Assembly: GCA_003455995.1 (NCBI GenBank)
Contig: DMPO01000006.1
Span: 38,397-102,396 of the forward strand
Direction: 5' to 3'
DNA: 64,000 nucleotides
Origin: Candidatus Azambacteria bacterium
GTDB lineage: Bacteria; Patescibacteriota; Minisyncoccia; UBA10092
The position numbers and the translations under genes are program-made. This document shows positions 30,015 to 62,448 of the stretch, piece after piece. The notes under the pieces were generated by a model that was not told the DNA's origin, did no database searches, and saw only the letters and a program-made list of their open reading frames with translations. Every line of letters starts with the position of its first letter. The first letter of the stretch is position 1.

Positions 30015-30032
30015 AAAATTAGGAGGTTAAAA

Positions 30033-32836: not shown

Positions 32837-32840
32837 AGAT

Positions 32841-34155: not shown

Positions 34156-34169
34156 GAGAAGGAGGGCAT

Positions 34170-35042: not shown

Positions 35043-35084
35043 CTATGTTACCAAAAATTGCTGTAGCAATTTTTGGTAACATAG
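35043..35084. other. 42-nt perfect palindrome (19-bp stem, 4-nt loop) directly after the NeuB-like gene stop
   Basis: CTATGTTACCAAAAATTGC-TGTA-GCAATTTTTGGTAACATAG. Unusually long and perfect for a terminator stem. Confidence 0.6.
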
Positions 35085-35091
35085 TAATTAC

Positions 35092-35115
35092 GCCCCGTTA
35101 ACTAACGGGGCTTTT
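35092..35115 (+). terminator. Rho-independent terminator (shared convergent-gene region)
   Basis: GCCCCGTTA-loop-TAACGGGGC followed by TTTT. Overlaps the stop codon of the minus-strand flippase gene. Confidence 0.65.
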
Positions 35116-37690: not shown

Positions 37691-37718
37691 GGTTTAAGTG
37701 TAAAACTTAAAGCGAAAA

Positions 37719-39920
<2,202 letters not shown>

Positions 39921-39921
39921 T

Positions 39922-40779: not shown

Positions 40780-40787
40780 ACGATTTT

Positions 40788-42532: not shown

Positions 42533-42563
42533 TTTTGTTTACTATAAACATATTGCGATTACC

Positions 42564-43280: not shown

Positions 43281-43281
43281 A

Positions 43282-44172: not shown

Positions 44173-44174
44173 CC

Positions 44175-44786
44175 ATGAAAGGACAACTTATTAAGATCAC
44201 GCCGATCTCAAAAAAATTCCATAATGTTTTTCGTTTCTCCCGGAGAACTGCCGAGGTTGCCTTGCGTGGCGGGAAAAAATATAGATTTGACCGGCATGTT
44301 TTTGAAACCGGTCCGGCAGTGAGCGTTTTGCCCTATTTTTTTGATGAACAAAAAAAAGAGTGGATGGTTGTTCTTGTCCGCCAATACCGTCCCGCAGTTG
44401 ACGCTCTTTGCCTTGAGGCCCCGGGCGGGCTTTTAGAAAAAGGAGTGAATCCGCGACTTGAGATGACTCGCGAGCTCTTTGAAGAGGCGGGGATTCGCGT
44501 TTCTTCTCAAAAAATTAAATACATGGGGTATCAGCATCTTGCCAGCTCTTTTTGCGATCAGGTCGTCCATTTAGGGAGCGCTCACCTTTCTGATGTGAAA
44601 AGCGCCGCTAATCTTTTAGCGAGTTTACGAATACACAATGGTTTAATGAGCGAGCATGAATTTACCGAGGTGGTAGTGGTTCCGCTTTTGGACGCTCTTC
44701 GGAAACCAAGGCTTGTAACATACACCTTGGCCAAATATCAAATTCTTCAGCTTGCCGATGAACTGAAAATTTCTTGGCATAAATAA
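44175..44786 (+). CDS. NUDIX hydrolase
   Basis: GGLLEKGVNPRLEMTRELFEEAGI matches the Nudix box GX5EX7REUXEEXGU. Confidence 0.65.
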   Translation: MKGQLIKITPISKKFHNVFRFSRRTAEVALRGGKKYRFDRHVFETGPAVSVLPYFFDEQKKEWMVVLVRQYRPAVDALCLEAPGGLLEKGVNPRLEMTRELFEEAGIRVSSQKIKYMGYQHLASSFCDQVVHLGSAHLSDVKSAANLLASLRIHNGLMSEHEFTEVVVVPLLDALRKPRLVTYTLAKYQILQLADELKISWHK

Positions 44787-44803
44787 AAACCTAGGCGGAA
44801 GGC

Positions 44804-46333
44804 CTAGGTCGGAACAGTTGAACGAAGAATATAAGGAGGGATTTTGCCTTTTGAAGCGTCGAAGGCGTTTTCGGGAACATCGGTTTGATATGGCTGGCCG
44901 AGCTTTTCCCTCAGTTCTCGTTCTGTGTCGTTTCGGAGGCGCCGCAAGTCGTCGGCCGAAAGCGTTTCGGTAAATGCGGAAACCTTTCCCAAACCCTTCC
45001 GGTCTCCCCGGTCGCCTTTGTAAAACATGAAGTCCGAAAAGTAGTCCGTCTCTCCGGAATAAAGCTTGTCGCCGGTTTTAGGCGCGCGATAAACCCAAAC
45101 ATCCTTACGGCCGAGGACGGGTTCGGCTTCATCGTAGTATGGCGTTCCGGGATAGACCGTGATTCGGGTAAGGTCAAACGATTCCGGTCGAACTTGCAGA
45201 ATAAAATCTTTTGTTTCTTTGATTGTTTTTTCGGTTTCTCCGGGATGGCCGATTGACATCAGGGCCTTAACGCGCAGGCCGTTTCGCCGGGCGGTTTCCG
45301 CGCATCTGTAATTGTCTTCAAGCGTTGCGCGCTTGTTGATGTTGCGAAGAATTCGCGGCGATCCCGATTCAAAACCGGTCAGAATTTCCCGGAAACCAGC
45401 TTCATACATCGCTGTGGCTTGGCGGTCATTAAATAACTCCGCCTTAATGAAGCCGCGCAGCCGCCACTTAATGTCCAATTCTTTGCCAAGGGATATGATG
45501 GCATTCATTAATCGGACCAAATTATCGCCGCCGATATTCAGTTCGTCATCGTAGAACATCGCGCCGCACTCTTGGGCCACTTTTTCTTTATAGGCCGTCT
45601 GCATAAACCGATATACTTCCCGCAGTTCGGCAATAACATTATCCGCGCTTCGGAAACGAAGCGTTCGGAGAAACGCCGTATTCCGCCCGCCGCAAAAACC
45701 GCATCCGAAAGGGCACCCCAGCTGGGCAATGACGCTCGTTGTCGGGGCCCCGTCAATTAAGTAGCGGTAACTGCCGAGATCAATTAAATCCCGCGCCGGA
45801 AAAGGCAAATTCTCTAATTCTTCTCGTTTCAGAAAAAGGCTGGAATTTCGATTGTCGGCGTCAATAATTTGGCCATGCTTCGCTTGAAAAATATCAAAAA
45901 CAGCTCGTTCTCCATCTCCTGCGACTAAAACATCAAAATAATCGAAGATGCGCCGCAATGCTCGGGTTGCCCTTCCGGCAATTTTCTTTTCGCGCTCCCG
46001 GCGATAAGCGGCGTTCACGAGCGTGCCGTGCGGTCCGCCCAAAACCAGCTTGGCCGATGGCCGCATGCGTCTGATGGTCTCGGCAATGAAGCCGCTTGCC
46101 GGAAGCTGGGGGCTTGTCGCCGTAATCCCAAAAATATCCGTATTGTTTTCTTGGCAGTATTGTCCAACAACTTCCAAGTAGCGAGCCACTCCGGATAAGT
46201 CAAGCAGGTCAACATCGATTTGATTTCTTCGCAGCATAGCCGCGACCTTTAAAATACCTAAATGCGGGATCATCCGATCGTCGGAAAGGATGAGCGATGA
46301 AGGAATAACCAGGCACATTTTCATTGAGTCCAC
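44804..46333 (-). CDS. B12-binding domain radical SAM enzyme (class B rSAM)
   Basis: QLGCPFGCGFCGG is the CxxxCxxC motif. N-terminal cobalamin-binding-like domain. Visibly GC-rich relative to flanking genes. Confidence 0.8.
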   Translation of the reverse strand: MDSMKMCLVIPSSLILSDDRMIPHLGILKVAAMLRRNQIDVDLLDLSGVARYLEVVGQYCQENNTDIFGITATSPQLPASGFIAETIRRMRPSAKLVLGGPHGTLVNAAYRREREKKIAGRATRALRRIFDYFDVLVAGDGERAVFDIFQAKHGQIIDADNRNSSLFLKREELENLPFPARDLIDLGSYRYLIDGAPTTSVIAQLGCPFGCGFCGGRNTAFLRTLRFRSADNVIAELREVYRFMQTAYKEKVAQECGAMFYDDELNIGGDNLVRLMNAIISLGKELDIKWRLRGFIKAELFNDRQATAMYEAGFREILTGFESGSPRILRNINKRATLEDNYRCAETARRNGLRVKALMSIGHPGETEKTIKETKDFILQVRPESFDLTRITVYPGTPYYDEAEPVLGRKDVWVYRAPKTGDKLYSGETDYFSDFMFYKGDRGDRKGLGKVSAFTETLSADDLRRLRNDTERELREKLGQPYQTDVPENAFDASKGKIPPYILRSTVPT

Positions 46334-46390
46334 CTCCGTTAAATATTTTTTAGTGTTAAAGTTCTACCGTTAAGTTATCCACAGATTTAA

Positions 46391-46418
46391 TGGACAATCA
46401 AGTTTTATGTTCTATAAT
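46391..46418 (+). promoter_or_regulatory. Candidate sigma70 promoter TGGACA-N16-TATAAT
   Basis: -35 at 46391-46396 and a perfect -10 at 46413-46418, upstream of the signal-peptide start at 46482. Confidence 0.4.
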
Positions 46419-46481
46419 AAACAACGAGCGCGTGAAAACGCAAGTAAGAATTTTATAATTAATTTAATTAAAATAAATACA

Positions 46482-48395
46482 ATGTTACGAAAACATTTGG
46501 TAATTGTCGGGCTATTTTTGGCTGTAGGTGTTTTGTTTTTTAATGTTTCATCCGCCAATGCCATTATCAGAAGTTGGAACGGCGCGGGCGATGGAATGAC
46601 TTGGACAGATCCTCTAAACTGGGGCGGCGTGTCAAATGCCAATTATCCCGGTGAACTTGCTCCCGATGATGCGGTAATCGCATCCAGCACATCTGCGCTT
46701 GGTCCGCTTGGAGTCAATGCCACTTCCACAATTCCTTTTGGCGTTAACACACTGCAGATTAAAAACGGCTGGACTCTTTACATCGGCGGCACTCTGGGAG
46801 CGTCAAGCACGGTTTCTGTTTTGGGCACCAGCACCTTGAAACTCGCTACCAGCACTTACGGCTCCGGCACTCTGAATCTTGGCCAAACCGATCCTGGAGC
46901 TCCTTTATCTATAGCGACTGCCAATGCTACCTTTACTGCGGCAACTGGCACAGTTGCTTATATCGGTGGTGGCACTGCTAGTATTATTGTTGCTACAACC
47001 ACATTTTATAATTTAAGCTTAACCCCAACCTCTACTACCGCCACGGCGGCGATTCGCACTTATATATTTGGATCACCTACCGCAGCTCAAGTGCGGCAGG
47101 TAGCTACTACGACGGTATCCAATGTTTTTACTGTTAGTAGTGGCGCGAAAGCGGATTTTAATGGCCTGACCGATCTTTTGCTTTCCGGTTCCGGAACAGC
47201 GTTTTCCAAAGCCAATGGCGACTTTATACAAAGTTCCAAAATTGTTTATTCTTCGGCTTCAGCCACCAATATCGCCACGGGCACTTATGCCAATCTTGAA
47301 TTGACCGGCGCGGCGACAAAAACGCTTTTAGGCAATACTACCGCGACCAGCACGGTGACGATTCCGGCTAGCGGCACTTTGGCCATCAGCACCTATACAT
47401 TTACCGCCACCGGCGCTACTTGGACTAATAGCGGCACCGTAACGGAAAACACGGGCGGTAAAATTACGCTCGCCGCCGCCGGCGTACTCTCCAATTCCGC
47501 GGGCGGTTCGGCCGTAACGGCTTTCGGCAATGCCGATACTCTTCCGGTGATTCATATACAGATTACGGATACCAGTTTGAATCTTTTGGCGGCATCGGCC
47601 GAAACCCAAACGGCCACGGTAACTGGGACGAGCGGTATCACCGATTCCGAAACGGTTACTTTGACTGAAACGGGAATTGCCACGGGCATCTTCAGAGGCA
47701 GTCTTTCTTTCCAGCTTTCTGGCACCGATGTTAGTGGAGCCGTGGATTTCCAAGGAGGCGGCACCCTTAGCTATGCTTACACCGATTCGCAGGACTCAAG
47801 CGACACTCAATCCGGTTCAGCGTCATTTACCGGTACCGCGCCCGGAAGCGGCAGTGGTAGCGTGATCGTCTCGGTCACTCCGACTACTCCAGCGACACCA
47901 GCGGTGCCAGCTACCCCGGCTGTTTCGGGAGAATCTCCTGCCACTCCAGCAACGCCTGCGACTCCGGCTGCGCCTTCTCTTGAAAGCGTTCAAACCAAGA
48001 TCGCGAGCGTGATTGCTAAAATGGCAACTTTATCGGCGAGTCCCTCCGCCTCCGAGTTAACCGATGTTCAGGCGCAGATTGCGGCGATTTTGGCGGACAT
48101 TCAGGCCATTCAGACAACGGCGGCTCCTCAAGGCGCGGCTCTCGGTTATAATTTTGTTCGACCGCTCGCTTTGGGCATTAGGCATGGCGATGTAACAAAT
48201 CTTCAAAAGGCTCTAAAAACCGATTCGTCCATTTATCCTGAAGGAAAAGTAACGGGATACTTTGGTCCGGCGACGCTATCGGCAGTTAAGAAGTTTCAGG
48301 AGAAATACGGAATCGCTTCCAAAGGCCAGTCGGGATATGGCGTGGTTGGTCCGAAGACCAGAACGAAACTAAACGAACTTTACGGCGCGAAATAA
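46482..48395 (+). CDS. Secreted repeat-rich surface protein with C-terminal peptidoglycan-binding domain (PG_binding_1)
   Basis: Signal peptide MLRKHLVIVGLFLAVGVLFFNVSSANA. Long Thr/Ser/Gly/Ala-rich beta-repeat region. PATPAVPATPA proline linker. The C-terminal segment LALGIRHGDVTNLQKALK...GYFGPATLSAVKKFQEKYG is typical PG_binding_1. The ORF-track start at 46407 is probably too far upstream. Confidence 0.6.
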   Translation: MLRKHLVIVGLFLAVGVLFFNVSSANAIIRSWNGAGDGMTWTDPLNWGGVSNANYPGELAPDDAVIASSTSALGPLGVNATSTIPFGVNTLQIKNGWTLYIGGTLGASSTVSVLGTSTLKLATSTYGSGTLNLGQTDPGAPLSIATANATFTAATGTVAYIGGGTASIIVATTTFYNLSLTPTSTTATAAIRTYIFGSPTAAQVRQVATTTVSNVFTVSSGAKADFNGLTDLLLSGSGTAFSKANGDFIQSSKIVYSSASATNIATGTYANLELTGAATKTLLGNTTATSTVTIPASGTLAISTYTFTATGATWTNSGTVTENTGGKITLAAAGVLSNSAGGSAVTAFGNADTLPVIHIQITDTSLNLLAASAETQTATVTGTSGITDSETVTLTETGIATGIFRGSLSFQLSGTDVSGAVDFQGGGTLSYAYTDSQDSSDTQSGSASFTGTAPGSGSGSVIVSVTPTTPATPAVPATPAVSGESPATPATPATPAAPSLESVQTKIASVIAKMATLSASPSASELTDVQAQIAAILADIQAIQTTAAPQGAALGYNFVRPLALGIRHGDVTNLQKALKTDSSIYPEGKVTGYFGPATLSAVKKFQEKYGIASKGQSGYGVVGPKTRTKLNELYGAK

Positions 48396-48416
48396 TACGG
48401 AAAGCAAGTAATAAAA

Positions 48417-48447
48417 ACTTCCCCCGCTTGCGGGGGAAGTTTTTATT
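48417..48447 (+). terminator. Rho-independent terminator
   Basis: ACTTCCCCCG-CTTG-CGGGGGAAGT 10-bp stem followed by TTTTATT. Confidence 0.85.
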
Positions 48448-48478
48448 GTGATAACATAGAGAAATAATTAATAAAAAT

Positions 48479-49162
48479 ATGGAAGAACAAAATAAATTTT
48501 TGATACCGGCAGCAATTGTTTTTGCCGGCATTGTCATCGCGGTGGCGGTGGTCTATTCAACCAATGATAAATCGCGAAATGCCAATACGGATAATACGAA
48601 AATAGCGGCGCTGACGGCATTGCCGGCAATTTCTTCAAGCGATTTCGTTTTAGGCGAACAAAATGCGCCGGTAACGGTGATAGAATACGGCGATTTTCAA
48701 TGTCCGTTTTGCGGCAAGTTTTTTAGAGATACCGAATCGGTATTGCGGGAAAAATATATCAAAACCGGCAAAGTGAGATTTATTTATCGCGATTTTGCCT
48801 TTTTGGGGCAAGAATCAACTTGGGCGTCCAACGCCGCGCGATGCGCCGGAGAACAGAATAAATTCTGGCAATATCACGATTATCTCTATAATAACCAACA
48901 GGGGGAAAATCAAGGCGCTTTCGGCAAGGAAAATTTAAAAAAGTTCGCGTCGGCTTTGGGACTCGATAGAAGTAAATTCGACACTTGTCTCGATTCGGAA
49001 AAATATAATGATTTGATCCAGAAAGAAACCAAAGAAGGCGGCGAAGCCGGAGTGCAGGGGACGCCGGCAAATTTTGTGAATGGCGCGCTTTATGCGGGCG
49101 CTTTGCCGGTCGCTTCATTTACTAAAATTATTGACGACGAATTGAGCAAATTGGGAAAATAA
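48479..49162 (+). CDS. DsbA-like thiol:disulfide oxidoreductase (thioredoxin fold), membrane-anchored
   Basis: N-terminal TM helix. FQCPFCGKF is the CxxC active site. The rest is DsbA/Thioredoxin_4-like. Confidence 0.7.
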   Translation: MEEQNKFLIPAAIVFAGIVIAVAVVYSTNDKSRNANTDNTKIAALTALPAISSSDFVLGEQNAPVTVIEYGDFQCPFCGKFFRDTESVLREKYIKTGKVRFIYRDFAFLGQESTWASNAARCAGEQNKFWQYHDYLYNNQQGENQGAFGKENLKKFASALGLDRSKFDTCLDSEKYNDLIQKETKEGGEAGVQGTPANFVNGALYAGALPVASFTKIIDDELSKLGK

Positions 49163-49166
49163 AATT

Positions 49167-49403
49167 ATGCCGAAAATTAGGATATACACAACGCCCGAGT
49201 GCGTTTACTGCAGAATGGCAAAGGAATTTTTTGAAAAAAACAACATTTCTTATGAAGAAAAAGATGTTTCAGTTGATGATGAGGCGCGCGAAGAAATGAT
49301 TGAAAAATCCGGCCAGATGGGCGCGCCGGTTATGGATATTGACGGTAAGATTATCATCGGGTTTGATGAAGAGGAGTTATCAAAAATTTTAGCCGTAAAA
49401 TAA
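49167..49403 (+). CDS. Glutaredoxin-like protein (NrdH/YruB type)
   Basis: 78 aa. YTTPECVYCRMAKEFF is the CxxC motif. Glutaredoxin fold length. Confidence 0.7.
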   Translation: MPKIRIYTTPECVYCRMAKEFFEKNNISYEEKDVSVDDEAREEMIEKSGQMGAPVMDIDGKIIIGFDEEELSKILAVK

Positions 49404-49404
49404 C

Positions 49405-50328
49405 ATGTACGATTTGATTATTATCGGCGGCGGCCCCGCCGGGGCCGCCGCCGGAATATACGCGGCGCGGAAAAAATTAAAAACCTTAATGATCGCCGCC
49501 GATTTCGGCGGACAAGCGCTGGCTTCCGGCAATATCGAGAATTGGATTGGCGTTGAAAAAATGACGGGTCTTGAATTTGCCAAAATGCTCGAAAAACATG
49601 TTCGAGCGCAAGAAAGCATTGAAATAAAAATTTCGGAGAAAGTTGTTACCGTTGAAAAAATATCGGACGGGTTCGATATTGTAACCGACAAAAATAATAA
49701 TTATCAGGCCAAGGTCTTAATTATCGCTTCCGGAGGCCATCGCCGCCGCTTGGATGTTCCAGGCGGCGCCCAATTTGAAGGCAAGGGCGTTTCTTATTGC
49801 GCTACCTGCGACGCGCCGGTTTTTAAAAACAAGCGGGTGGCGGTTATCGGCGGCGGCAATGCCGGCTTGGAGACGGCAATCGACCTAATGCCGTATGCCG
49901 AAAAAATTTACCTGATAAACAGAAAGAATTTTTTTACCGGGGATGATGCGTTGCGGGAAAAAATAAAGCGGTTTAGTAAAATAAGCGCCATAATGAATGC
50001 GGATGTTCAGAAAATTTCTGGCGAAAAATTTGTTTCGGGTATAGAATATCTGGATGGAGGCGATAATTTGGTTAAAAAGTTGGAAGTGGAAGGAGTGTTT
50101 GTTGAGATTGGTTCGGTTCCGAATTCCGAGTTTGTAAAACATCTTGTGGAAACAAATCCAAAGGGGGAGGTTATTGTTAACCATAAAACGGGAGCCGCAA
50201 GTTGTCCCGGAGTATTTGCGGCCGGCGATGTTACCGACGCGATTTACAAGCAAAATAATGTTTCCGCCGGGGACGCCATTAAAGCCGTTCTCTCGGCGCA
50301 TAATTATTTACTCAACATTAAAATATGA
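49405..50328 (+). CDS. trxB: Thioredoxin-disulfide reductase
   Basis: IIGGGPAGAAAGIYAAR is the FAD motif. CATCDAPVF is the redox-active disulfide. GGGNAGLETA is the NADPH motif. Confidence 0.85.
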   Translation: MYDLIIIGGGPAGAAAGIYAARKKLKTLMIAADFGGQALASGNIENWIGVEKMTGLEFAKMLEKHVRAQESIEIKISEKVVTVEKISDGFDIVTDKNNNYQAKVLIIASGGHRRRLDVPGGAQFEGKGVSYCATCDAPVFKNKRVAVIGGGNAGLETAIDLMPYAEKIYLINRKNFFTGDDALREKIKRFSKISAIMNADVQKISGEKFVSGIEYLDGGDNLVKKLEVEGVFVEIGSVPNSEFVKHLVETNPKGEVIVNHKTGAASCPGVFAAGDVTDAIYKQNNVSAGDAIKAVLSAHNYLLNIKI

Positions 50329-51383
50329 CTCGAATAGCAATTAACGGTTTTGGGCGGATCGGAAGGGTCTTTTTTCGTTGCGCTTTTGGCCAATCGGATA
50401 TAGAAATTGTCGCCATAAATGATTTGGGCGCCGCCGAAAATATGGCGTATCTTTTGAAATATGACTCGGTTTACGGCCCTTATGAAAAATCGGTAGAGTC
50501 CGGTCCGGAAGTTCTGATTGTTGACGGCAAAGAAATTAAAATGATGCGGCAAAAAGATCCCGCTCTATTGCCATGGGGCGATTTGAATATCGATATCGTC
50601 ATCGAATCGACCGGGGTTTTTGAAACGTATGAAAAATCGGCGGCGCATTTAACCGCCGGCGCCAAGCGCGTGATTATTGCCGCGCCCGCCAAAGATGACG
50701 CTACCCCTACGGCTACTCCGAATGTCGGGGAAGAATTTTTGAAATTGAATAAAATAACTTCGGCCGCTTCTTGCACCACTAACGCGGCGACTCCGATAAT
50801 GTCTGCGCTGTCAAAAAATCCCGGCATTAAAAAAGCCGTTTTGAATACCGTCCATGCCTATACGGCGTCCCAAAAGGTAATTGATGGTTCCGATAATAAT
50901 AATGATTACAGAAAAAACAGAGCGGCGGCGCAAAATATTATTCCTTCGACAACCGGCGCCGCGCTTACGGCTACAAAGGTCTTTCCGCCGCTAGAAGGAA
51001 AATTTGATGGCGTCTCTTTAAGGGTGCCGGTAATTTGCGGTTCCATTATTGATTTTACTTTTGTAGCCGAAAGACCGACTTCCGTTGAAGAAATAAACAA
51101 TATTTTGAAAAAAGCCGCGCAAGAAAAACAATGGCAGGAAATTCTGGCGGTTACCGAAGAACAGCTGGTTTCCAGCGACATTCTTAAAAATCCCAATGGT
51201 TCCATCGTCGATCTCAATATGACCAAGGTCGTTGACGGCGATTTGGTTAAAATTTTATCATGGTATGACAATGAATGGGGGTATGCAAACCGTTTAGTAG
51301 AACAGGTAATTAGAGTAGGAAGAACACTAGAAGGTGGAATAGCTCCAACTGACCCATTAACTCTAAGTCATACAAATGGATAA
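50325..51383 (+). CDS. gap: Glyceraldehyde-3-phosphate dehydrogenase (type I)
   Basis: INGFGRIGR, ASCTTN (catalytic Cys), WYDNEWGY C-terminal motif. The last ~25 codons form an unusual C-terminal extension written in a different codon style. Confidence 0.85.
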   Translation: MTRIAINGFGRIGRVFFRCAFGQSDIEIVAINDLGAAENMAYLLKYDSVYGPYEKSVESGPEVLIVDGKEIKMMRQKDPALLPWGDLNIDIVIESTGVFETYEKSAAHLTAGAKRVIIAAPAKDDATPTATPNVGEEFLKLNKITSAASCTTNAATPIMSALSKNPGIKKAVLNTVHAYTASQKVIDGSDNNNDYRKNRAAAQNIIPSTTGAALTATKVFPPLEGKFDGVSLRVPVICGSIIDFTFVAERPTSVEEINNILKKAAQEKQWQEILAVTEEQLVSSDILKNPNGSIVDLNMTKVVDGDLVKILSWYDNEWGYANRLVEQVIRVGRTLEGGIAPTDPLTLSHTNG

Positions 51384-51996
51384 ATCTAAAAATAAAAAAA
51401 AGATAAAACAAATTAGTTATTTTGGTTTTGCAGATGCAGCTCCTAATGATCCACTTTATAAAGAAGCTTTTGAAGTTGCCAAATATATGGCCGAAAAAGG
51501 TTTTGTTGCAATAAATGGAGGAGGACCTGGAACAATGAGAGCAGTTTCAGAAGGAGCCAAAGCTGGTAAAGGAACCGCAGTTGGGGTTACTTTTTATCCT
51601 AAAGATATTACAAATTTTGAAGGAAGAGATCCTGAAAATCCAATGGATATGGAAATAAAATGTCCTAATTATCTTGAAAGAACTTTAAAACTTTTAGAAT
51701 TAGGTGATGCATATGTCTTTTTTAGAGGAGGGACAGGAACAATTTCTGAATTTGGTATGGCATGGGGCTTAGCTAGACTTTATTTTGGCCATCACAAGCC
51801 TCTAATTTTATTTGGAGATTATTGGAACAATATTATTAAAAGTTTTATAGATAATATGAGAATAAGATCGGAAGACTTGAAAGTATATAAAGTTGTTAAT
51901 AGTCCAGAAGAAATTATTGACGCTATTGAATACTTTGATAGGGTGTTAACTGAAAACAAAGTTATTCATAATGATGAGAAGGCTTTTCAGATATAA
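51376..51996 (+). CDS. LOG family protein (TIGR00730 Rossmann-fold nucleotide-binding / cytokinin riboside 5'-monophosphate phosphoribohydrolase-like)
   Basis: INGGGPGTMRAVSEGA and FRGGTGTISEF are the two conserved LOG motifs. Confidence 0.7.
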   Translation: MDKSKNKKKIKQISYFGFADAAPNDPLYKEAFEVAKYMAEKGFVAINGGGPGTMRAVSEGAKAGKGTAVGVTFYPKDITNFEGRDPENPMDMEIKCPNYLERTLKLLELGDAYVFFRGGTGTISEFGMAWGLARLYFGHHKPLILFGDYWNNIIKSFIDNMRIRSEDLKVYKVVNSPEEIIDAIEYFDRVLTENKVIHNDEKAFQI

Positions 51997-52025
51997 ATTT
52001 TAGTTTATTTTTATATTTAATATTC

Positions 52026-52874
52026 ATGAAATACACAATTGAAGATCTGGAGAAAATTGCTATAGAGGTAAGAGAGGATATTGTCAAAATGATTTTAAAA
52101 GCAGGTGCAGGACATCCTGCAGGATCTTTAGGTATGGTTGAAGTCTTTGTGGCACTTTACTATGCCATTTTAAATCATGATCCTAAAAATCCCAATTGGG
52201 AAGATAGGGATAGATTAATTCTTTCAAATGGCCATATTTGTCCCGCTCGTTATGCAGTAATGAGTCATGTAGGTTATTTTGAACATAAAGAACTTTTAAA
52301 ATTTGGTGGATTTGGCAGAATTTTGCAAGGTCATCCGGACAAAAGATTTTTACCTTCTCTTGAAACAACTTCGGGGCCATTAGGCTGTGGACTTGCTCAA
52401 GGATGTGGTATTGCCATAGGGGCTAAGATGGATAAAAAAAGGTTTAGAACTTTTGTAATAACTTCAGATGGGGAACATGATGAAGGAAATCATTGGGAGG
52501 CTGTTGCCTTTGCTGGGAAAAACAATTTAAGTAATTTAACTTTAATTGTTGATAGAAATAATATTCAGATTGATGGATTTACTGAAAATGTGATGCCACT
52601 TGAACCTTTAGCTTCTAAATACCAAGCTTTTGGTTGGTCTACTATAGAAATTGATGGTCATAATTTTTCTGAAATTGTTAATGCAGCAAATAAAGCTCGT
52701 GCAATTTATGAAAACCCAACAGTAATTATTGCAAAAACAATTCCAGGTAAAGGAGTTCCTTTTATGGAGGGAAATCCTAATTGGCATGCAAAGGCACCAA
52801 GTTCAGATGAAGCAAAACAGGCAATTATTGATATCAGAACAATGCAGGGGAAAATCAAAACTTATGGGGAATAA
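52026..52874 (+). CDS. Transketolase, N-terminal (ThDP-binding) subunit
   Basis: GHPAGSLGMVEV, DRLILSNGHICPARYAV, GHPD...TSGPLGCGLAQGCGIAIG and SDGEHDEGNHWEA are split-transketolase signatures. Confidence 0.85.
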   Translation: MKYTIEDLEKIAIEVREDIVKMILKAGAGHPAGSLGMVEVFVALYYAILNHDPKNPNWEDRDRLILSNGHICPARYAVMSHVGYFEHKELLKFGGFGRILQGHPDKRFLPSLETTSGPLGCGLAQGCGIAIGAKMDKKRFRTFVITSDGEHDEGNHWEAVAFAGKNNLSNLTLIVDRNNIQIDGFTENVMPLEPLASKYQAFGWSTIEIDGHNFSEIVNAANKARAIYENPTVIIAKTIPGKGVPFMEGNPNWHAKAPSSDEAKQAIIDIRTMQGKIKTYGE

Positions 52875-52886
52875 ATAAAAATTATT

Positions 52887-53882
52887 ATGGTTAACAATAA
52901 ATTAAACTTATCAGATCAATTATTTAAAAAAGATATAGAAAAAAAATTCATGAGAGACGGATTTGGTGAGGGACTTTTAACGGCAGGTGAAAAGGATGAA
53001 AGAATTGTTGTTTTAACAGCTGATTTAAAAGAATCAACAAGGGTTAATCTTTTTGCAGATTCCTTTCCAGAAAGATTTATTGAAGTTGGAGTTTCCGAAC
53101 AAGCGATGGTAACAATTGCATCAGGTCTTGCTAATTACGGAAAAATTCCATTTTGCAGTTCATATGCTGTCTTTAGCCCGGGAAGAAATTGGGAACAGAT
53201 TAGAACAACAATTGGAATAGATAATTATCCTGTAAAAATAATTGGAGCGCAATCAGGACTTAATATTGGTCATTATGGAGTAACACATCAAGGCCTGGAA
53301 GACATTGCTCTTGCCCGTGTTATTCCAAACATGAATGCTATCGTTCCAAGTGATTATATTGAGGCAAAAAAAGCGACTTTAGAGATTGCAAAGAGTGATA
53401 AACCTTACTATATGAGACTACCTAGAATTGATAGTCCTGTCTATACCACAGATAAAACTCCATTTAAAATTGGAAAGGCCAATATTTTAACTGAAAGTAA
53501 AATTCCAGAAGTAGCAATTATTGCAACTGGTTTATTGGTTTATAAAGCGCTTTTAGCATATAAAGAACTAGAAAAAAATGGAATAGAAACAATTGTAGTA
53601 AATATGCATACAATAAAACCTTTAGATGAAGAAACAGTTATAAGAAGTGCAAAATTAACAGGAGCTGTTGTTACAGTTGAAGAACATCAGATAATTGGTG
53701 GATTGGGATCCGCGATATCAGAAAGTTTATCTAAAAATTTTCCTGTACCAATGGAAATATTGGGAGTAAAAGATAGGTTTGGACAATCAGGAACTCCAAA
53801 AGAGTTATTTGAAGAATATAATTTGACTAAGGAAGACATTATTAAAGCCGTTAAAAAAGTTATAAGCAGGAAAAATTCTTAA
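52887..53882 (+). CDS. Transketolase, C-terminal (pyrimidine-binding) subunit
   Basis: FIEVGVSEQAMVTIASGLA and the downstream TK_C-like domain. Follows the N-terminal subunit after a 12-nt gap. Confidence 0.85.
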   Translation: MVNNKLNLSDQLFKKDIEKKFMRDGFGEGLLTAGEKDERIVVLTADLKESTRVNLFADSFPERFIEVGVSEQAMVTIASGLANYGKIPFCSSYAVFSPGRNWEQIRTTIGIDNYPVKIIGAQSGLNIGHYGVTHQGLEDIALARVIPNMNAIVPSDYIEAKKATLEIAKSDKPYYMRLPRIDSPVYTTDKTPFKIGKANILTESKIPEVAIIATGLLVYKALLAYKELEKNGIETIVVNMHTIKPLDEETVIRSAKLTGAVVTVEEHQIIGGLGSAISESLSKNFPVPMEILGVKDRFGQSGTPKELFEEYNLTKEDIIKAVKKVISRKNS

Positions 53883-53884
53883 AA

Positions 53885-54163
53885 TTAATAAGCTCCACCT
53901 TTAAAATCGGGGTAATTCAATTTATACCAATTCATTGCTTCTTTACTACAATCATTCTTTACTGTCTCAATTGTAGGCATACAATCTATCCAGCCACCTT
54001 CAGGACAAGAATATGATGATACTTTAGGTTTATTGGTTGGAAGTATTTTGACTATTTTATTTTTTGGGTATACGAAAAAGAGAGCAACTAAGGTAGAAAG
54101 TAAAACTAAGATGGAGAGTAAAATGATCAAAAATTTTTTATCACCACTAGAGTTTTTACTCAT
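53885..54163 (-). CDS. Small signal-anchored Cys-containing protein (hypothetical)
   Basis: 92 aa. N-terminal KKFLIILLSILVLLSTLVALFF anchor resembles the anchors of the two PBP-associated paralogs. Confidence 0.35.
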   Translation of the reverse strand: MSKNSSGDKKFLIILLSILVLLSTLVALFFVYPKNKIVKILPTNKPKVSSYSCPEGGWIDCMPTIETVKNDCSKEAMNWYKLNYPDFKGGAY

Positions 54164-54186
54164 AATGTCATTATAATGTATATCAT

Positions 54187-55149
54187 ATGCAAGAAACTGT
54201 CCAGAAAATTTTAACGTCTAATAGAGGTATTTTAGCTGCAGATGAATCAACAAATACAATTACAAAAAGATTTTTATCATTAGGTTTAACTTCAACCCCA
54301 GAACTTAATAAAAAATACAGAGAAGTGCTTTTTTCAACTCCAGATCTCGAAAAATACATAAGTGGAGTGATTTTATTTGATGAAACAATTAGGCAAGGAT
54401 TAGGTCAAATGTTAAATCAAAAGGGAATATTAATTGGTATTAAAGTTGATGGGGGTTTAGAAAACTTTAATAATACGGAAGAACAAGTCACAAAAGGATT
54501 AGATGGTTTGTCAATTAGACTTGATGAATATAAAAAAATGGGTGCAACTTTTACTAAATGGAGGGGAGTAATTAAAATTTCAGATATTTTTCCAACAGAT
54601 CAATTTTTAGATGAAACTTTAGGAGGAATGGTCAAGTATGCAAAATTAGTTCAGGAAAAGGAAATGATTCCAATAGTTGAACCTGAAATACTTTTAGATG
54701 GAAATCACACAACAACAAGATGTGGAGAGATAACTGGGAAAACATTAAAAAGATTATTTGAATTACTTTTAAAAGAAGGAGTTGACTTGACTAAAGTAAT
54801 TTTAAAGACAAATATGGTTTTACCTGGAAAAGATAGTGGAGTTACAGCAGCCCCATTAGAAGTTGCTGGTGCAACCTTAAGGATATTAAATTTATCTGTT
54901 CCTAAAGAAATTCCAGGAATTGTTTTTCTTTCTGGTGGGCAAACTCCTGATCAAGCAACAAATAATTTAAATGAGATAGTTAAAACCAAAGGAGATTCTC
55001 CTTGGGATATTTCATTTTCATATGGTAGGGCTTTACAAGAAGAAGCAATGAAGACATGGGGTGGAAAAGATGAAAATAAACTTAATGCTCAAGAAGTTTT
55101 TACAAAAAGACTTCAAATTGTTTCTAAGGCTAGGATGGGAGAACTTTAG
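54187..55149 (+). CDS. Fructose-bisphosphate aldolase, class I
   Basis: GILAADESTNTITKRF is the hallmark of class I (Schiff-base) aldolases. Confidence 0.8.
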   Translation: MQETVQKILTSNRGILAADESTNTITKRFLSLGLTSTPELNKKYREVLFSTPDLEKYISGVILFDETIRQGLGQMLNQKGILIGIKVDGGLENFNNTEEQVTKGLDGLSIRLDEYKKMGATFTKWRGVIKISDIFPTDQFLDETLGGMVKYAKLVQEKEMIPIVEPEILLDGNHTTTRCGEITGKTLKRLFELLLKEGVDLTKVILKTNMVLPGKDSGVTAAPLEVAGATLRILNLSVPKEIPGIVFLSGGQTPDQATNNLNEIVKTKGDSPWDISFSYGRALQEEAMKTWGGKDENKLNAQEVFTKRLQIVSKARMGEL

Positions 55150-55151
55150 AT

Positions 55152-56144
55152 ATGAGTAATCTTGATTTACTTTCTGTAGGAGATGCTAATTTAGATGCAT
55201 TTATTACACCTTCTGAATCAGAATCTCTTTGTGACATTAATACTAAGGAGTGTCTAATTGCTTTTTCGTATGCAGATAAAATTCCTGTTAAAAATTTAGA
55301 ATTTTCTGTTGGTGGAAATGCTGCAAATAATTTAGTTGGAACTAAAAGATTAGGAGTTAATTCTGGTGCAGTACTAACCTTGGGGGATGATAGTACAGGA
55401 GTCCAAATTATTGAAAAATTAAGGCAGGAGAGTGTTGACTTAACCTATGTTATTCAACAACCATCGACGCTTTCAAACTTTAATATGGTAATTTCATATA
55501 CAGGGGAGCGAACAATTTTTACATATCATGCCCCAAGATCATATGAATTTCCAGTAAATCTACCTAAAGTTCCTTGGATGTATTTAACTTCGATGGGAGA
55601 ATCTTTTAAACCTTTCTATAATCATATAACTGAGTGGTTAGTTAAAAATCCAGAAACTAAGCTTTCCTTTAATCCAGGAACTTGGCAATTAAGAGGTGGA
55701 ATTGATGCAATTGAAAATGTATTTAAACTTTCTACTTTGGTTTTTGTAAATAAACAAGAAGCAGAGAAACTAACAGGATTTGAAGCTAAAGATAAAGTTA
55801 CTAAAGAACTTCTAATGGCCCTTTCAGGATTGGGACCAAAAATAGCAGTTATTACTGATGGTGGAAACGGATCATTTGTTTTTGATGGTAATAGATTTTT
55901 ACACTGTGGAATACTTCCGGTTGATGCATATGAAAGAACTGGAGCAGGAGATGCTTTTGGATCAGGATTTTTGTCAGCTGTAATCAAAGGCAAAACTTTA
56001 GAAGAAGCTTTAATTTGGGGAACAGTTAATTCAGCTTCAGTTATTGGTTATACAGGAGCACAAAGAGGATTATTAACAGAAGATGATATGAGTACATGGG
56101 TTGACAGGGCAAAATCTTCGGGAGTTATGGTTGAGGAGATGTAG
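55152..56144 (+). CDS. PfkB-family carbohydrate kinase (ribokinase/fructokinase/phosphofructokinase-like)
   Basis: GGNAAN N-terminal motif and ERTGAGDAFGSGFL C-terminal PfkB signature. Confidence 0.75.
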   Translation: MSNLDLLSVGDANLDAFITPSESESLCDINTKECLIAFSYADKIPVKNLEFSVGGNAANNLVGTKRLGVNSGAVLTLGDDSTGVQIIEKLRQESVDLTYVIQQPSTLSNFNMVISYTGERTIFTYHAPRSYEFPVNLPKVPWMYLTSMGESFKPFYNHITEWLVKNPETKLSFNPGTWQLRGGIDAIENVFKLSTLVFVNKQEAEKLTGFEAKDKVTKELLMALSGLGPKIAVITDGGNGSFVFDGNRFLHCGILPVDAYERTGAGDAFGSGFLSAVIKGKTLEEALIWGTVNSASVIGYTGAQRGLLTEDDMSTWVDRAKSSGVMVEEM

Positions 56145-56850
56145 TTGGTTCGGATTCAATAAACTTAATAGTAGATAGAATTTGATCAAAAACTTGAAAA
56201 AGATTTGGATCCTCTGTGCCTAGTTGGAAATAGTATCGTATTCCATTATGGTCAAGCAAAACAAAAATTAGGTTTGGTCCTTTAAGGATTATTGATTTTT
56301 CCCCACCAAGTTCTGACTCAAATTTTTCTGTTCCAGGTTCTGCTCCAGGTTGGTTTAGTCTGTATGTTGCGTCTTGATCGAGTGATTTTTCTGGATTTTC
56401 ATAAGAAAAAAGATAGAGGGTGGCAATCAAACCCTCTACCTCAACACTTTGGGAGCTGGGGTTGTCTACTGGGTAAGATATCCACGATCCATATCCACCA
56501 TCGGGGGACCCTAATACTTCTTTGTGTGTATACCATTTTTCGGGTAATGCAATCGAGAGCCCTATTTTTGAGAAAATATGGACTTTCCAATCTGTAGTTG
56601 GATCTGTTGTTGGTATTGGTTCAGTCGATGTAATCGGAGTAGGGATAACCTGTAATTTTGTAATTTCTTTAACTAAATTTTGTGTTTGATATGCAAAAAA
56701 ACCTGCAATTAAAACAGAAATGATAAGTAAAATTGAAAGTAAAATTACTAAAAAGCTACTATTTTTTTTAGGTTCAGCTGTTTCCATTTTTTGTGCTGGT
56801 TCTATTTGTGGTGTTGGTGTTTGTGTATTTGTGGTTATATTTTGTTCCAT
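56125..56850 (-). CDS. Hypothetical signal-anchored extracytoplasmic protein (paralog of 61711-62424)
   Basis: Pro/Thr-rich N-terminus, then anchor KKNSSFLVILLSILLIISVLIAGFFAYQTQNLVKEITKLQ that is shared with the paralog. Beta-rich C-terminal domain. Confidence 0.45.
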   Translation of the reverse strand: MEQNITTNTQTPTPQIEPAQKMETAEPKKNSSFLVILLSILLIISVLIAGFFAYQTQNLVKEITKLQVIPTPITSTEPIPTTDPTTDWKVHIFSKIGLSIALPEKWYTHKEVLGSPDGGYGSWISYPVDNPSSQSVEVEGLIATLYLFSYENPEKSLDQDATYRLNQPGAEPGTEKFESELGGEKSIILKGPNLIFVLLDHNGIRYYFQLGTEDPNLFQVFDQILSTIKFIESEPTTSPQP

Positions 56851-56887
56851 GCTTTAATAATAACATAGGAAATGTTAAATTTAATGT

Positions 56888-57874
56888 ATGAAAGTCTTTG
56901 TAACCAGAAAAATTCCTGGAGAATCTCTTGAAGAACTTAAAAAAAATAATTTTGAAGTTACTGTCTCAGAATTTGATAGACCATTAACTTCTGAGGAACT
57001 TTTAGAAAAATCAAAAGGAGTTGATGCACTTCTCTGTCTTTTAACAGACAAAATTGATGGTGATTTAATGGATGCAATTGGACCACAACTTAAAATTATT
57101 AGTAACTATGCAGTTGGTTTTGACAATATAAACATTGCTGACGCAACTGATCGTGGAATTGTTGTTACTAATACCTCATGTGTAGAAGTAGATGAAGCAG
57201 TAGCTGAACACACTTGGGCTTTAATTGCATCACTTACTAGAAGAATAGTTGAGGCAGATGAAACAACCAGAAGGGGAGCATTTAAGGGTTGGGAACCAAA
57301 TATATTTTTAGGAGTTTCTTTAATTGGAAAAACCTTAGGAATTATTGGTTTAGGAGGAATTGGGACCATGGTAGCAAGACGAGCAATAGGCTACAAGATG
57401 AATGTTATTTATAACAAAAGGAAAAGAGACGAAGAAGCAGAAAAAAATCTAGGAGTTAGATATTCCGACTTAGATACACTCTTTAAAGAAAGTGATGTTG
57501 TCACACTTCATGTTCCATTAACAGATGAAACTAGGCACATGATTAATAAAGAAACTCTTAATAAAATGAAAAAAGGAAGTTTTTTGGTTAATACTGCAAG
57601 AGGACCTATTGTTGATGAACATTCCTTAGTTGAAAGTTTAAAAGATGGACATTTAACTGGTGCTGCACTAGATGTATTTGATAACGAACCAAATATAGAC
57701 CCAGAACTTATTGGTATGCCAAATGTTATTACAACCCCACACATTGCATCTGCAACACATGAAGCAAGGGAAGCAATGGGAAAATTGGCAGTTTCAGCAA
57801 TTTTAGAAACTTTTTCTTCTAAGGAACCTATTAATATTGTTAATAAAGAGGTTTGGGAAAAAAGGAGAAAATGA
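56888..57874 (+). CDS. D-isomer-specific 2-hydroxyacid dehydrogenase (glyoxylate/hydroxypyruvate reductase / D-glycerate dehydrogenase-like)
   Basis: GIIGLGGIGTMVARRA is the NAD motif. Catalytic-domain signatures of the D-2-HDH family. Confidence 0.8.
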   Translation: MKVFVTRKIPGESLEELKKNNFEVTVSEFDRPLTSEELLEKSKGVDALLCLLTDKIDGDLMDAIGPQLKIISNYAVGFDNINIADATDRGIVVTNTSCVEVDEAVAEHTWALIASLTRRIVEADETTRRGAFKGWEPNIFLGVSLIGKTLGIIGLGGIGTMVARRAIGYKMNVIYNKRKRDEEAEKNLGVRYSDLDTLFKESDVVTLHVPLTDETRHMINKETLNKMKKGSFLVNTARGPIVDEHSLVESLKDGHLTGAALDVFDNEPNIDPELIGMPNVITTPHIASATHEAREAMGKLAVSAILETFSSKEPINIVNKEVWEKRRK

Positions 57875-58866
57875 TATTTTCAAGAGGAAAGGATGCTGAT
57901 TTTGAAGATGAAGTTGAGGAAGAAGAGATTCCTAAGAGAAAATTTAGAGATTTAAGACCAGAAAACCGTAGAGCTCGTAAAGAACCTCCAAAGCCGTGGG
58001 GTAAAAAAGAAAGATTAATTGTTTTAATAATACTTTTAGTTACAGTATTAACTTCAGGAATATTAGCTTTAACTGCAAGAAATTTTAAATTACCAAATTT
58101 TCCCAAAATTGGCATTCCGAATCTTTCTAATTTTAATATTTTTAAAGAACAGGTAATAATTGTGGGGAATAAGGGGACAAAGGTAAACTTAGCTAAAATT
58201 GAAAACACCAAAAAACAATTTAAAAGTTTAACTGATGATTATTCAGGAATTTATGCATTTTATATCTATGATCTAAATGGAAATTATTTTTATGGAGAAA
58301 ATTATCAAGAAAAAATGCAAGCAGCATCATTAATTAAACTGCCTGTAATTTACTTAACATACCTAGAAAGTCAAAAAGGAAACCTTGATATAAATGAATA
58401 TAGGTCTTACTTAGAAGCAATGGGTAAAAGATCAGATAATCAAGCTTTTATAAAAATGGTTTCTATTTTAGGCAAAGAAAATATTAATAAAGCAATAATT
58501 AATCTTGGAATGAGTAAAACCTCTTTAGAGGAAAATATTACAACACCTGAAGATATCGGTTTGTTTTTTAAGAAACTAAAAAATTATGAAATTTTAAATA
58601 AAGAAAATACAGATGAATTTTTAGAATTTTTAACTGATACTTCTTTTGAAAAATGGCTAAGACCAGGAATACCATCTGAAATTAGACTTGCCCATAAATA
58701 TGGTAGAGAAGTACATGCAGTAAATGATGCTGGGATAGTTTTTAGTGATAAACCTTTTGTTCTTGTAATAATGACTGATGGAGTAGTAGAAAGTGAAGCT
58801 GATAAAATATTTCCAGAACTTAGTAAATTATTGTATAATGATCAAATAAATGAAAAAACCAATTGA
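57871..58866 (+). CDS. Membrane-anchored serine hydrolase with class A beta-lactamase/penicillin-binding fold
   Basis: ASLIK (SxxK), RSDN (SDN) and a HKYG (KTG-like) motif. N-terminal TM helix. Start set to the ATG at 57871, which overlaps the upstream stop as ATGA and has an AAAGGAGA SD. Confidence 0.5.
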   Translation: MIFSRGKDADFEDEVEEEEIPKRKFRDLRPENRRARKEPPKPWGKKERLIVLIILLVTVLTSGILALTARNFKLPNFPKIGIPNLSNFNIFKEQVIIVGNKGTKVNLAKIENTKKQFKSLTDDYSGIYAFYIYDLNGNYFYGENYQEKMQAASLIKLPVIYLTYLESQKGNLDINEYRSYLEAMGKRSDNQAFIKMVSILGKENINKAIINLGMSKTSLEENITTPEDIGLFFKKLKNYEILNKENTDEFLEFLTDTSFEKWLRPGIPSEIRLAHKYGREVHAVNDAGIVFSDKPFVLVIMTDGVVESEADKIFPELSKLLYNDQINEKTN

Positions 58867-61672: not shown

Positions 61673-61710
61673 ATTATATCAAATTATGGGATAAAGTGGA
61701 TATGAGAAAG

Positions 61711-62424: not shown

Positions 62425-62448
62425 ACTTTTTTAAATTATATATTTAAT

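What the first reader, a model, noticed from the sequence alone, without database searches (positions are those of the whole stretch)
51250..51390. Abrupt codon-usage/composition switch inside the conserved 3' end of gap: possible chimeric join or recombination breakpoint
Up to about 51.25 kb, coding sequence uses G/C-ending codons with frequent CpG (gcc, ggc, ccg). From the WYDNEWGY motif of GAPDH onward, and for all of 51.4-64 kb, codons are A/T-ending and CpG-poor (gca, gga, cct). The switch falls within one of the most conserved stretches of a universal gene, which is exactly where assemblers or homologous recombination join different genomes. GAPDH also acquires an odd 25-aa C-terminal extension. 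Transketolase is present on both sides. This may mean the downstream 12.7 kb derives from a different, related organism. Functional linkage across this boundary should not be assumed.
Basis: seen in the sequence. Interest (0 to 1): 0.6.

Follow-up and report, generated by a model that had tools for sequence, protein, structure and literature searches.

The report
Chimeric contig joining two bacterial genomes
The sharp change in base composition inside the GAPDH gene is real, but it marks where a metagenome assembly most likely spliced two unrelated groundwater bacteria at a 28-base stretch both share, so it is a data-quality artefact rather than biology.

Summary
CpG observed/expected falls from a median of 1.48 to 0.34, GC3 from 0.49 to 0.18 and GC from about 0.45 to 0.33. 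The change point lies between 51240 and 51304.

- **Left side.** Window 1-51286 is 100% identical to independently assembled Candidatus Azambacteria contigs (Parcubacteria group, up to 585 kb). In those contigs gap ends natively at 335 aa and is followed by a 213-aa ORF, rpiB, UDG and purD.
- **Right side.** Window 51259-52686 is 100% identical to a Candidatus Woesebacteria contig (Microgenomates group) whose upstream genes are tpi-rpiB-pgk-gap. Window 51228-64000 is collinear with the conserved Woesebacteria cluster gap-LOG-tktN-tktC-fba-pfkB and onward in 12 relatives.
- **Junction.** The two sources overlap only in one 28-mer at 51259-51286, which encodes WYDNEWGY. It is the only long exact word they share.
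- **Rarity.** The hybrid 352-aa GAPDH (HAN62082.1) is on record on one contig. The native 335-aa protein is on 55.
- **C-terminal extension.** It is the normal Woesebacteria GAPDH tail.

Verdict: almost certainly an inter-phylum assembly chimera in a public MAG. Biological interest is low, but the result is useful for database hygiene. Read mapping is the missing proof.

The parts
1..51258 (.). Segment derived only from a Candidatus Azambacteria genome (Parcubacteria group). CpG-rich, GC 0.32-0.54.
   Evidence: 100% identical, with no gaps, to independent contigs: L009 covers 1-21035, L006 and L007 cover 18186-39847, L001 and L002 cover 39405-51286. Proteins are named Candidatus Azambacteria. 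CpG o/e is 1.1-1.8 throughout.
30908..32836 (+). Azambacteria fused transketolase, 642 aa: the 'left-hand' transketolase.
   Evidence: Pfam Transketolase_N, Transket_pyr and Transketolase_C. Present in the native Azambacteria contigs L006-L008. Only 29-33% identical to the right-hand split enzyme.
49405..50328 (+). Azambacteria thioredoxin-reductase-like gene, the last intact left-hand gene.
   Evidence: The exact protein is listed in 109 blocks of the collection. All 24 contigs read have a native 335-aa gap downstream, followed by a 213-aa ORF and rpiB.
50325..51383 (+). Hybrid gap ORF, 352 aa. Codons 1 to about 311 come from Azambacteria and the last 32 or so from Woesebacteria, joined in frame.
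   Evidence: Gp_dh_N and Gp_dh_C domains. Identical to HAN62082.1, which is on record on a single contig of 115,670 bp. The native 335-aa protein is on 55 contigs. Three-way alignment.
51259..51286 (.). Junction: the 28-bp exact word CATGGTATGACAATGAATGGGGGTATGC (WYDNEWGY) shared by both source genomes.
   Evidence: The Azambacteria parent matches the window up to 51286. The Woesebacteria parent matches from 51259. This is the only shared exact word above chance; the next longest are 13-17 nt.
51287..64000 (.). Segment derived only from a Candidatus Woesebacteria genome (Microgenomates group). CpG-poor, GC 0.26-0.36.
   Evidence: 51259-52686 is 100% identical to L005 and 51259-51983 to L004. 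51228-64000 is collinear at about 90% nucleotide identity with L072-L074. Exact proteins occur on 36-48 contigs named Woesebacteria, the longest 826,104 bp. Gene order is conserved in 9 species representatives.
51376..51996 (+). Woesebacteria LOG / SLOG-family gene. It overlaps the gap stop codon by 8 nt, as in native Woesebacteria loci.
   Evidence: Pfam LDcluster4 and Lysine_decarbox. The same 8-nt overlap is seen in L073 (gap 7409-8476, LOG 8469-9089).
52026..53882 (+). Woesebacteria split transketolase: N-terminal subunit 52026-52874 and C-terminal subunit 52887-53882.
   Evidence: Pfam. 76-86% identical to Woesebacteria relatives in the same position.
54187..56144 (+). Woesebacteria class I fructose-bisphosphate aldolase (54187-55149) and PfkB-family sugar kinase (55152-56144).
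   Evidence: Pfam. Synteny in 9 relatives.

Best explanation
The window comes from a contig of a public metagenome-assembled genome labelled Candidatus Azambacteria bacterium (proteins HAN62081-HAN62093, contig 115,670 bp). That contig is an in-silico chimera of two co-occurring aquifer bacteria from different candidate phyla.

Bases 1-51286 are Azambacteria. Bases 51259-64000 are Woesebacteria. Both genomes carry the identical 28-mer CATGGTATGACAATGAATGGGGGTATGC in the WYDNEWGY motif of gap.

Inferred mechanism: a k-mer or overlap-graph assembler with a word size of 28 or less had one shared node there. It walked in along the Azambacteria path and out along the Woesebacteria path. Because both genes are in the same frame at the motif, the product is an intact-looking hybrid GAPDH.

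Shown directly: the two sources, their native continuations, the exact overlap, and the rarity of the hybrid. Inferred: that the join was made by software rather than by a cell.
For: 1. The left side is identical to independent assemblies right up to the motif. L001 and L002 have 0 mismatches over 39405-51286, then diverge completely from 51287. The whole of 1-51286 is tiled at 100% by L009, L006/L007 and L001/L002.
2. In all 24 contigs read that carry the neighbouring trxB-like gene, gap is 335 aa and is followed by a 213-aa ORF, rpiB, UDG and purD. None shows the window's right side.
3. The right side is identical to L005 from 51259 to that contig's end at 52686, and to L004 up to 51983. Both diverge completely left of 51258. 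L005 carries tpi-rpiB-pgk upstream of gap.
4. The 28-mer is the only long exact word the sources share; the next longest are 13-17 nt.
5. Window 51228-64000 is collinear with Woesebacteria contigs L072-L074 at about 90% identity, and nothing left of 51228 matches them. Nine species representatives keep the order tpi-rpiB-pgk-gap-LOG-tktN-tktC-fba-pfkB-2HADH-bla-like-PBP and contain no left-side genes.
6. The hybrid protein HAN62082.1 is on 1 contig and the native 335-aa protein is on 55. Three sibling assemblies (accession series HAJ, HAX and HBW) hold both the same trxB-like protein and the native GAPDH, with adjacent accession numbers.
7. The source names fall in different phylum-level lineages.
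8. There is no amelioration. CpG o/e steps from about 1.6 to about 0.3 within 50 nt, and both sides are mutation-free relative to their sources.
9. There are no tRNA genes in the window, no integrase or recombinase among the right-hand proteins, and no repeats above chance at the junction.
Against: - No reads, coverage or mate-pair data could be examined, so the join was not observed to lack read support.
- A 28-bp microhomology could in principle support a real, though inefficient, recombination event.
- I could not fetch the source record itself or confirm which assembler and word size were used.
- The 100% match of the right side to an independent contig is shown only to 52686. Beyond that the evidence is exact protein identity on Woesebacteria contigs and roughly 90%-identity collinearity.
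Confidence: 0.93

Rival explanations
1. A genuine, very recent inter-phylum recombination or horizontal transfer. An Azambacteria cell acquired at least 12.7 kb of Woesebacteria DNA by crossover at the 28-bp identical stretch in gap, creating a real hybrid GAPDH.
For: The join is in frame and leaves a full-length Gp_dh_N + Gp_dh_C protein. Both organisms appear in runs with neighbouring accession numbers, SRR3989338/39/44, so they may share a project or site and physical contact is conceivable. Reads were not examined.
Against: - The hybrid is on record on one contig against 55 for the native gene.
- All 24 Azambacteria contigs read have the native continuation.
- Both flanks are 100% identical to free-standing parents, with no amelioration.
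- The Woesebacteria part continues collinearly to the end of the window with no return to Azambacteria.
- There are no mobile-element hallmarks.
- From general knowledge, 28 bp is at the lower limit for RecA-dependent recombination, and the flanks are only about 55% identical.
Confidence: 0.04
2. A post-assembly artefact other than a graph path switch. Examples are overlap-based contig merging, scaffolding or gap-closing during bin refinement, which glued an Azambacteria contig ending in gap to a Woesebacteria contig starting in gap.
For: The outcome would be the same: an exact 28-bp overlap with no Ns. Contigs often break at inter-genome repeats, leaving ends that overlap by about k bases, and merging tools can join such ends.
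Against: Nothing distinguishes this from a primary assembler error with the data available. The practical conclusion, an artefact, is the same.
Confidence: 0.02
3. A native compositional heterogeneity of a single genome, such as an old genomic island or a strand or expression-related codon-bias boundary.
For: The left part does contain a native GC step of about 0.36 to 0.45 near 27-28 kb.
Against: That internal step keeps CpG o/e at 1.3-1.7 and is present in independent contigs. The 51.26-kb break separates sequences that each exist separately in other assemblies with different neighbours.
Confidence: 0.01

Closest known systems
Inter-species repeat-induced chimeric contigs in short-read (de Bruijn graph) metagenome assemblies
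   Same: Two genomes are joined at a short exact word inside a highly conserved gene. Each side is identical to a separately existing genome. Composition changes abruptly at the join. The chimera is seen in only one assembly. A review of MAG tools names chimeric contigs and inter-species repeats as problems that short-read metagenome assemblers try to handle (PMC8640167).
   Different: From my own knowledge, the usual culprits are rRNA operons, tRNAs, transposases or strain-level repeats. Here the shared word is only 28 nt, lies in a protein-coding housekeeping gene, and joins organisms from different candidate phyla. The join is in frame and yields a plausible-looking protein now deposited as HAN62082.1.
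Horizontally acquired genomic island with a recombination boundary
   Same: A sharp GC, codon-usage and dinucleotide boundary, with genes beyond it having best hits in another lineage.
   Different: There is no tRNA, integrase or direct-repeat boundary. There is no second boundary within 12.7 kb. Identity to the donor is 100%. The arrangement is absent from every other assembly examined of the same population.
Naturally mosaic housekeeping genes, such as recombinant gap or tuf alleles among close relatives
   Same: A crossover inside a conserved core gene.
   Different: From general knowledge, natural mosaics arise between closely related genomes with long flanking homology. Here the two gap genes are only about 43% identical in protein and about 55% in DNA next to the join.

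Membership tests
Assembly chimera (inter-genome misjoin) | Each side matches a different, independently assembled genome at or near 100% identity | tested here: met
   Left 1-51286 is 100% identical to L009, L006/L007 and L001/L002. Right 51259-52686 is 100% identical to L005.
Assembly chimera (inter-genome misjoin) | Both source genomes continue natively, and differently, past the junction in other assemblies | tested here: met
   Azambacteria: the gap 3' end, then a 213-aa ORF, rpiB and UDG in 24 of 24 contigs read. Woesebacteria: tpi-rpiB-pgk and the gap 5' end upstream.
Assembly chimera (inter-genome misjoin) | The junction lies in a short exact word shared by the sources, of a length comparable to assembler k | tested here: met
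   A 28-nt exact overlap at 51259-51286. The next longest shared words are 13-17 nt.
Assembly chimera (inter-genome misjoin) | The chimeric arrangement is unique to one assembly | tested here: met
   The hybrid 352-aa GAPDH is on 1 contig and the native one on 55. The right-hand 47-mer scan of JGI metagenome contigs returned only two contigs, and both diverge from the window left of 51258, so neither carries the chimeric junction.
Assembly chimera (inter-genome misjoin) | No reads or pairs span the junction, and there is a coverage step at the join | not testable with these tools
   No read data are available.
Genuine HGT / recombination boundary | The same junction is present in independent assemblies or strains of the recipient | tested here: not met
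   all other Azambacteria contigs examined carry the native arrangement.
Genuine HGT / recombination boundary | Mobile-element or integration hallmarks (tRNA target, integrase, flanking direct repeats), or a second boundary returning to host sequence | tested here: not met
   No tRNAs. No integrase or recombinase domains on the right. Only chance-level repeats. There is no return to Azambacteria sequence by 64000, although the contig extends beyond the window.
Genuine HGT / recombination boundary | Some divergence or amelioration relative to the donor | tested here: not met
   0 mismatches to L005 over 1428 nt. CpG o/e is unchanged from the donor type.

The most novel reading that the evidence does not exclude
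The join is real. A Candidatus Azambacteria cell carries at least 12.7 kb of freshly acquired Candidatus Woesebacteria DNA, including a sugar-phosphate metabolism cluster, recombined at a 28-bp identity inside gap. That would be direct evidence of very recent inter-phylum gene flow between CPR bacteria sharing an aquifer.
Probability: 0.04. Interest if true: 0.6.

Novelty: not a real feature. Interest (0 to 1): 0.1.

Why it matters
Biologically it matters little, because the boundary reflects the assembly and not the organisms. It does matter for data hygiene.

- A deposited MAG labelled Candidatus Azambacteria contains at least 12.7 kb of Woesebacteria genes: split transketolase, class I aldolase, PfkB kinase, 2-hydroxyacid dehydrogenase and penicillin-binding proteins.
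- A hybrid GAPDH (HAN62082.1) sits in nr under the Azambacteria name.
- Metabolic reconstructions, HGT screens, pangenomes or protein-family phylogenies that use this contig would attribute these genes to the wrong phylum.
- No operon or functional linkage should be inferred across 51259-51286.
- A 28-nt identity in a protein-coding gene was apparently enough to fuse genomes from different candidate phyla. A dinucleotide (CpG) change-point scan finds such joins very cleanly.

Tried and rejected
- **Exact-protein context look-ups.** Look-ups for the hybrid GAPDH and five right-hand proteins (LOG, tktN, tktC, aldolase, 2HADH) returned 'not on record'. The cluster look-up shows four of those five (tktN and aldolase were not submitted), plus a 352-aa GAPDH identical to the hybrid, are in the collection. 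I treat this as an index gap, not absence. I worked around it with a 90%-cluster member, P0033.
- **Species-representative genomes.** An exact 47-mer scan found nothing. The right-hand source species appears not to be represented, and the best relative is 86% identical in the tktC protein.
- **Assembler of the source MAG.** I tried to confirm it from the literature. The paper I expected to describe it is not held, and the paper I did open describes a different assembly. The assembler and word size therefore remain an inference.
- **Genomic-island boundary.** Considered because of the native GC step at 27-28 kb. Rejected because CpG o/e does not change there and independent contigs span it.
- **Mobile-element insertion.** Rejected: no tRNA, no integrase and no significant repeats.
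- **Searches not run.** The question was settled by DNA identity.

Full report
**Observation**

The window shows a dramatic, step-like change in composition at about 51.26 kb.

- GC per kb is 0.45-0.54 over 43-51 kb and 0.26-0.36 over 51-64 kb.
- The clearest signal is the CpG dinucleotide. Observed/expected is 1.13-1.77 in every kb of 1-51000 and 0.12-0.55 in every kb of 52001-64000. In 500-bp windows the distributions do not overlap: left minimum 0.86, right maximum 0.63, p=1e-14.
- Mean GC3 is 0.49 for eight left-hand genes and 0.18 for twelve right-hand genes.
- Markov-chain change-point analysis of orders 1-3 places the break at 51292, with support 51240-51304 for orders 2-3.
- Inside the 352-aa gap ORF (50325-51383), the first 311 codons hold 82 CpGs at GC3 0.46. 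The last 32 codons hold one CpG at GC3 0.09.

**The left-hand source**

The gene just upstream of gap is a thioredoxin-reductase-like ORF at 49405-50328. Its exact protein is listed in 109 blocks of the public assembly collection. The 24 longest contigs were read. In all of them gap is 335 aa and is followed by a 213-aa ORF, rpiB, a uracil-DNA glycosylase, purD and further genes, not by anything on the window's right side.

- Base-by-base comparison shows zero mismatches between the window and L001 (ENA scaffold, 514 kb) or L002 (GCA_001774215.1 MEZB01000001.1, 585 kb) over 39405-51286. Divergence is complete from 51287.
- Two further look-ups tile the rest at 100% identity. L006 and L007 cover 18186-39847, and L009 (GCA_003512535.1) covers 1-21035.
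- So 1-51286 is one genuine, repeatedly recovered genome segment.
- Its proteins are named Candidatus Azambacteria, which NCBI places in the Parcubacteria group.

**The right-hand source**

An exact 47-mer from just right of the break (51300-51346) found two JGI metagenome contigs.

- In reverse complement both are identical to the window from 51259 to their ends: L004 to 51983 and L005 to 52686. Both differ completely left of 51258.
- L005 carries tpi, rpiB and pgk upstream of its gap.
- Exact copies of the window's LOG, tktC, PfkB, 2-hydroxyacid dehydrogenase and PBP proteins occur on 36-48 contigs, the longest 826,104 bp. They are named Candidatus Woesebacteria, for example GW2011_GWF1_31_35 and RIFOXYC1_FULL_31_51. 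NCBI places this taxon in the Microgenomates group.
- Three contigs of a close relative at about 90% nucleotide identity (L072-L074) align collinearly with window 51228-64000 and with nothing to the left.
- Nine Woesebacteria/Microgenomates species representatives keep the order tpi-rpiB-pgk-gap-LOG-tktN-tktC-fba(class I)-pfkB-2HADH-beta-lactamase-like-hyp-PBP(-)-PBP-like(-). None contains a homologue of the four left-hand genes tested.
- The whole right side is therefore an ordinary Woesebacteria locus that has lost its proper upstream half.

**The junction**

The Azambacteria source matches through 51286 and the Woesebacteria source from 51259. They overlap in exactly 28 nt, CATGGTATGACAATGAATGGGGGTATGC, which encodes WYDNEWGY.

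- This is the only long exact word shared by the available source loci. The next longest shared words are 13-17 nt, which is background level.
- Immediately to the left, the two gap genes are only 55% identical in DNA. Overall they are about 43% identical in protein.
- The join is in frame. It produces an intact hybrid with Gp_dh_N and Gp_dh_C domains.

**The C-terminal extension and the two transketolases**

The tail after WYDNEWGYA, NRLVEQVIRVGRTLEGGIAPTDPLTLSHTNG, is present almost unchanged in the native 355-aa GAPDHs of L072-L074. Nine further relatives cover it at least in part: their alignments reach residues 344-350 of the 350-residue L004 GAPDH query. The 8-nt overlap with the LOG start codon also occurs in the native L073 locus. 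So this is a lineage trait of Woesebacteria GAPDH and not something created by the join.

The two transketolases belong to the two organisms. The fused 642-aa enzyme at 30908-32836 is present in native Azambacteria contigs. The split N/C pair at 52026-53882 is present in native Woesebacteria contigs.

**Where the window comes from**

The hybrid 352-aa protein is identical to HAN62082.1, 'TPA: type I glyceraldehyde-3-phosphate dehydrogenase [Candidatus Azambacteria bacterium]'. It is recorded on a single contig of 115,670 bp.

- Accessions HAN62081 (trxB-like), 62082 (hybrid gap), 62083 (LOG), 62085 (tktC), 62088 (PfkB), 62090 (2HADH) and 62093 (PBP) are spaced exactly as the window's gene order requires. 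I infer that they are consecutive genes on that single contig and that it is the window's source; the record itself was not fetched.
- Three sibling accession series (HAJ, HAX, HBW) hold the same trxB-like protein and the native 335-aa GAPDH under adjacent accession numbers.
- I infer from the TPA label and accession style, from my own knowledge, that this is one of the large automated MAG sets built from public SRA runs with a short-word de Bruijn assembler. I could not verify the assembler.

**Interpretation**

Every testable criterion for an inter-genome misassembly is met.

- There are two independent sources at 100% identity.
- Each has a native continuation elsewhere.
- The overlap is exact and of k-mer size.
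- The chimeric arrangement is unique to one assembly.
- There is no amelioration.
- There are no integration hallmarks: no tRNA, no integrase and only chance-level repeats.

Chimeric contigs and inter-species repeats are recognised problems for short-read metagenome assemblers (PMC8640167). The one missing piece is read-level evidence. I put the probability of an assembly or merging artefact at about 0.95, made up of 0.93 for the assembler-join account plus 0.02 for a post-assembly merge. A genuine, very recent inter-phylum recombination gets about 0.04.

**Consequences**

- No functional or operonic linkage should be drawn across 51259-51286.
- The right-hand sugar-phosphate genes should not be credited to Azambacteria.
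- HAN62082.1 is a hybrid protein.
- Scientific interest is low.

Noticed in passing
window 27000-28500: A second, milder composition step lies inside the Azambacteria part. GC is about 0.36 over 1-27 kb and about 0.45 over 28-51 kb, while CpG o/e stays at 1.3-1.7. Independent contigs (L006, L007) span it at 100% identity, so it is native. The low-GC part is a glycosyltransferase- and methyltransferase-rich polysaccharide cluster that looks strain-variable. Its 529-aa PMT_2 protein was found on only 14 contigs, whereas genes further right are listed in 105-109 blocks of the collection.
   Followed up: partly
L004 (Ga0208373_1025448), reverse-complement positions 1-1770 versus 1771-3157: This 3.2-kb JGI contig matches Woesebacteria only from about position 1771, inside gap near the GAKRV-ISAPAK motif. 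Its first 1.77 kb, including the gap 5' end, matched none of the seven Woesebacteria loci it was searched against (hits to L012, L013, L072 and L073 were examined) and has a higher CpG o/e of 0.9-1.1. It may be a second, independent chimera or mosaic with its break in another conserved GAPDH motif.
   Followed up: partly
L005 (Ga0075839_124), reverse-complement positions about 6266-6267: The Woesebacteria contig that is 100% identical to the window's right side lacks 61 nt of gap relative to L072 and L073. This frameshifts the gene: the N-terminal 55 aa are in one frame and the rest in another. It is either a strain-level pseudogene or an assembly deletion.
   Followed up: partly
window 51288-51383; L072-L074 gap 3' ends: Woesebacteria GAPDH has a C-terminal tail about 17 aa longer than the Azambacteria enzyme (...RVGRTL[ED]G[GE]IAPTDPLTLSHTNG). 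It is near-identical in L072-L074 and at least partly covered in nine further relatives. Its coding sequence overlaps the start of the downstream LOG-family gene by 8 nt. Its function is unknown.
   Followed up: partly
L012, L017, L022, L027, L031 (genome contigs record titles): Several records carry a close tktC homologue (52-86% identical). L012 and L017 carry the full Woesebacteria-type cluster at 83-86% tktC identity. The records are titled 'uncultured Gammaproteobacteria bacterium' or 'Candidatus Woesearchaeota archaeon', which look like taxonomic mislabels of Patescibacteria MAGs.
   Followed up: no
window 53883-54152 and 61679-62448: Two small stretches of the Woesebacteria part have no counterpart in the roughly 90%-identical relatives L072-L074. 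One holds a 92-aa minus-strand ORF where the relatives have a 192-aa ORF. The other holds a 237-aa ORF between the two PBP genes that is absent from L072. These are strain- or species-level indels.
   Followed up: no
window 46407-48395: A 662-aa Azambacteria ORF rich in Thr, Ala and Ser, with repeated ATPATPA motifs, has no Pfam family on record. It lies in the local GC maximum of 0.535 at 47-48 kb and is probably a secreted or surface protein.
   Followed up: no
tool behaviour: The exact-protein contig index reported the hybrid GAPDH and five Woesebacteria proteins as 'not on record'. The cluster look-up found three of those five (LOG, tktC, 2HADH) on 46-48 contigs and a 352-aa GAPDH identical to the hybrid on one contig; tktN and the aldolase were not submitted to it. 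'Not on record' in that index is therefore not evidence of absence.
   Followed up: yes
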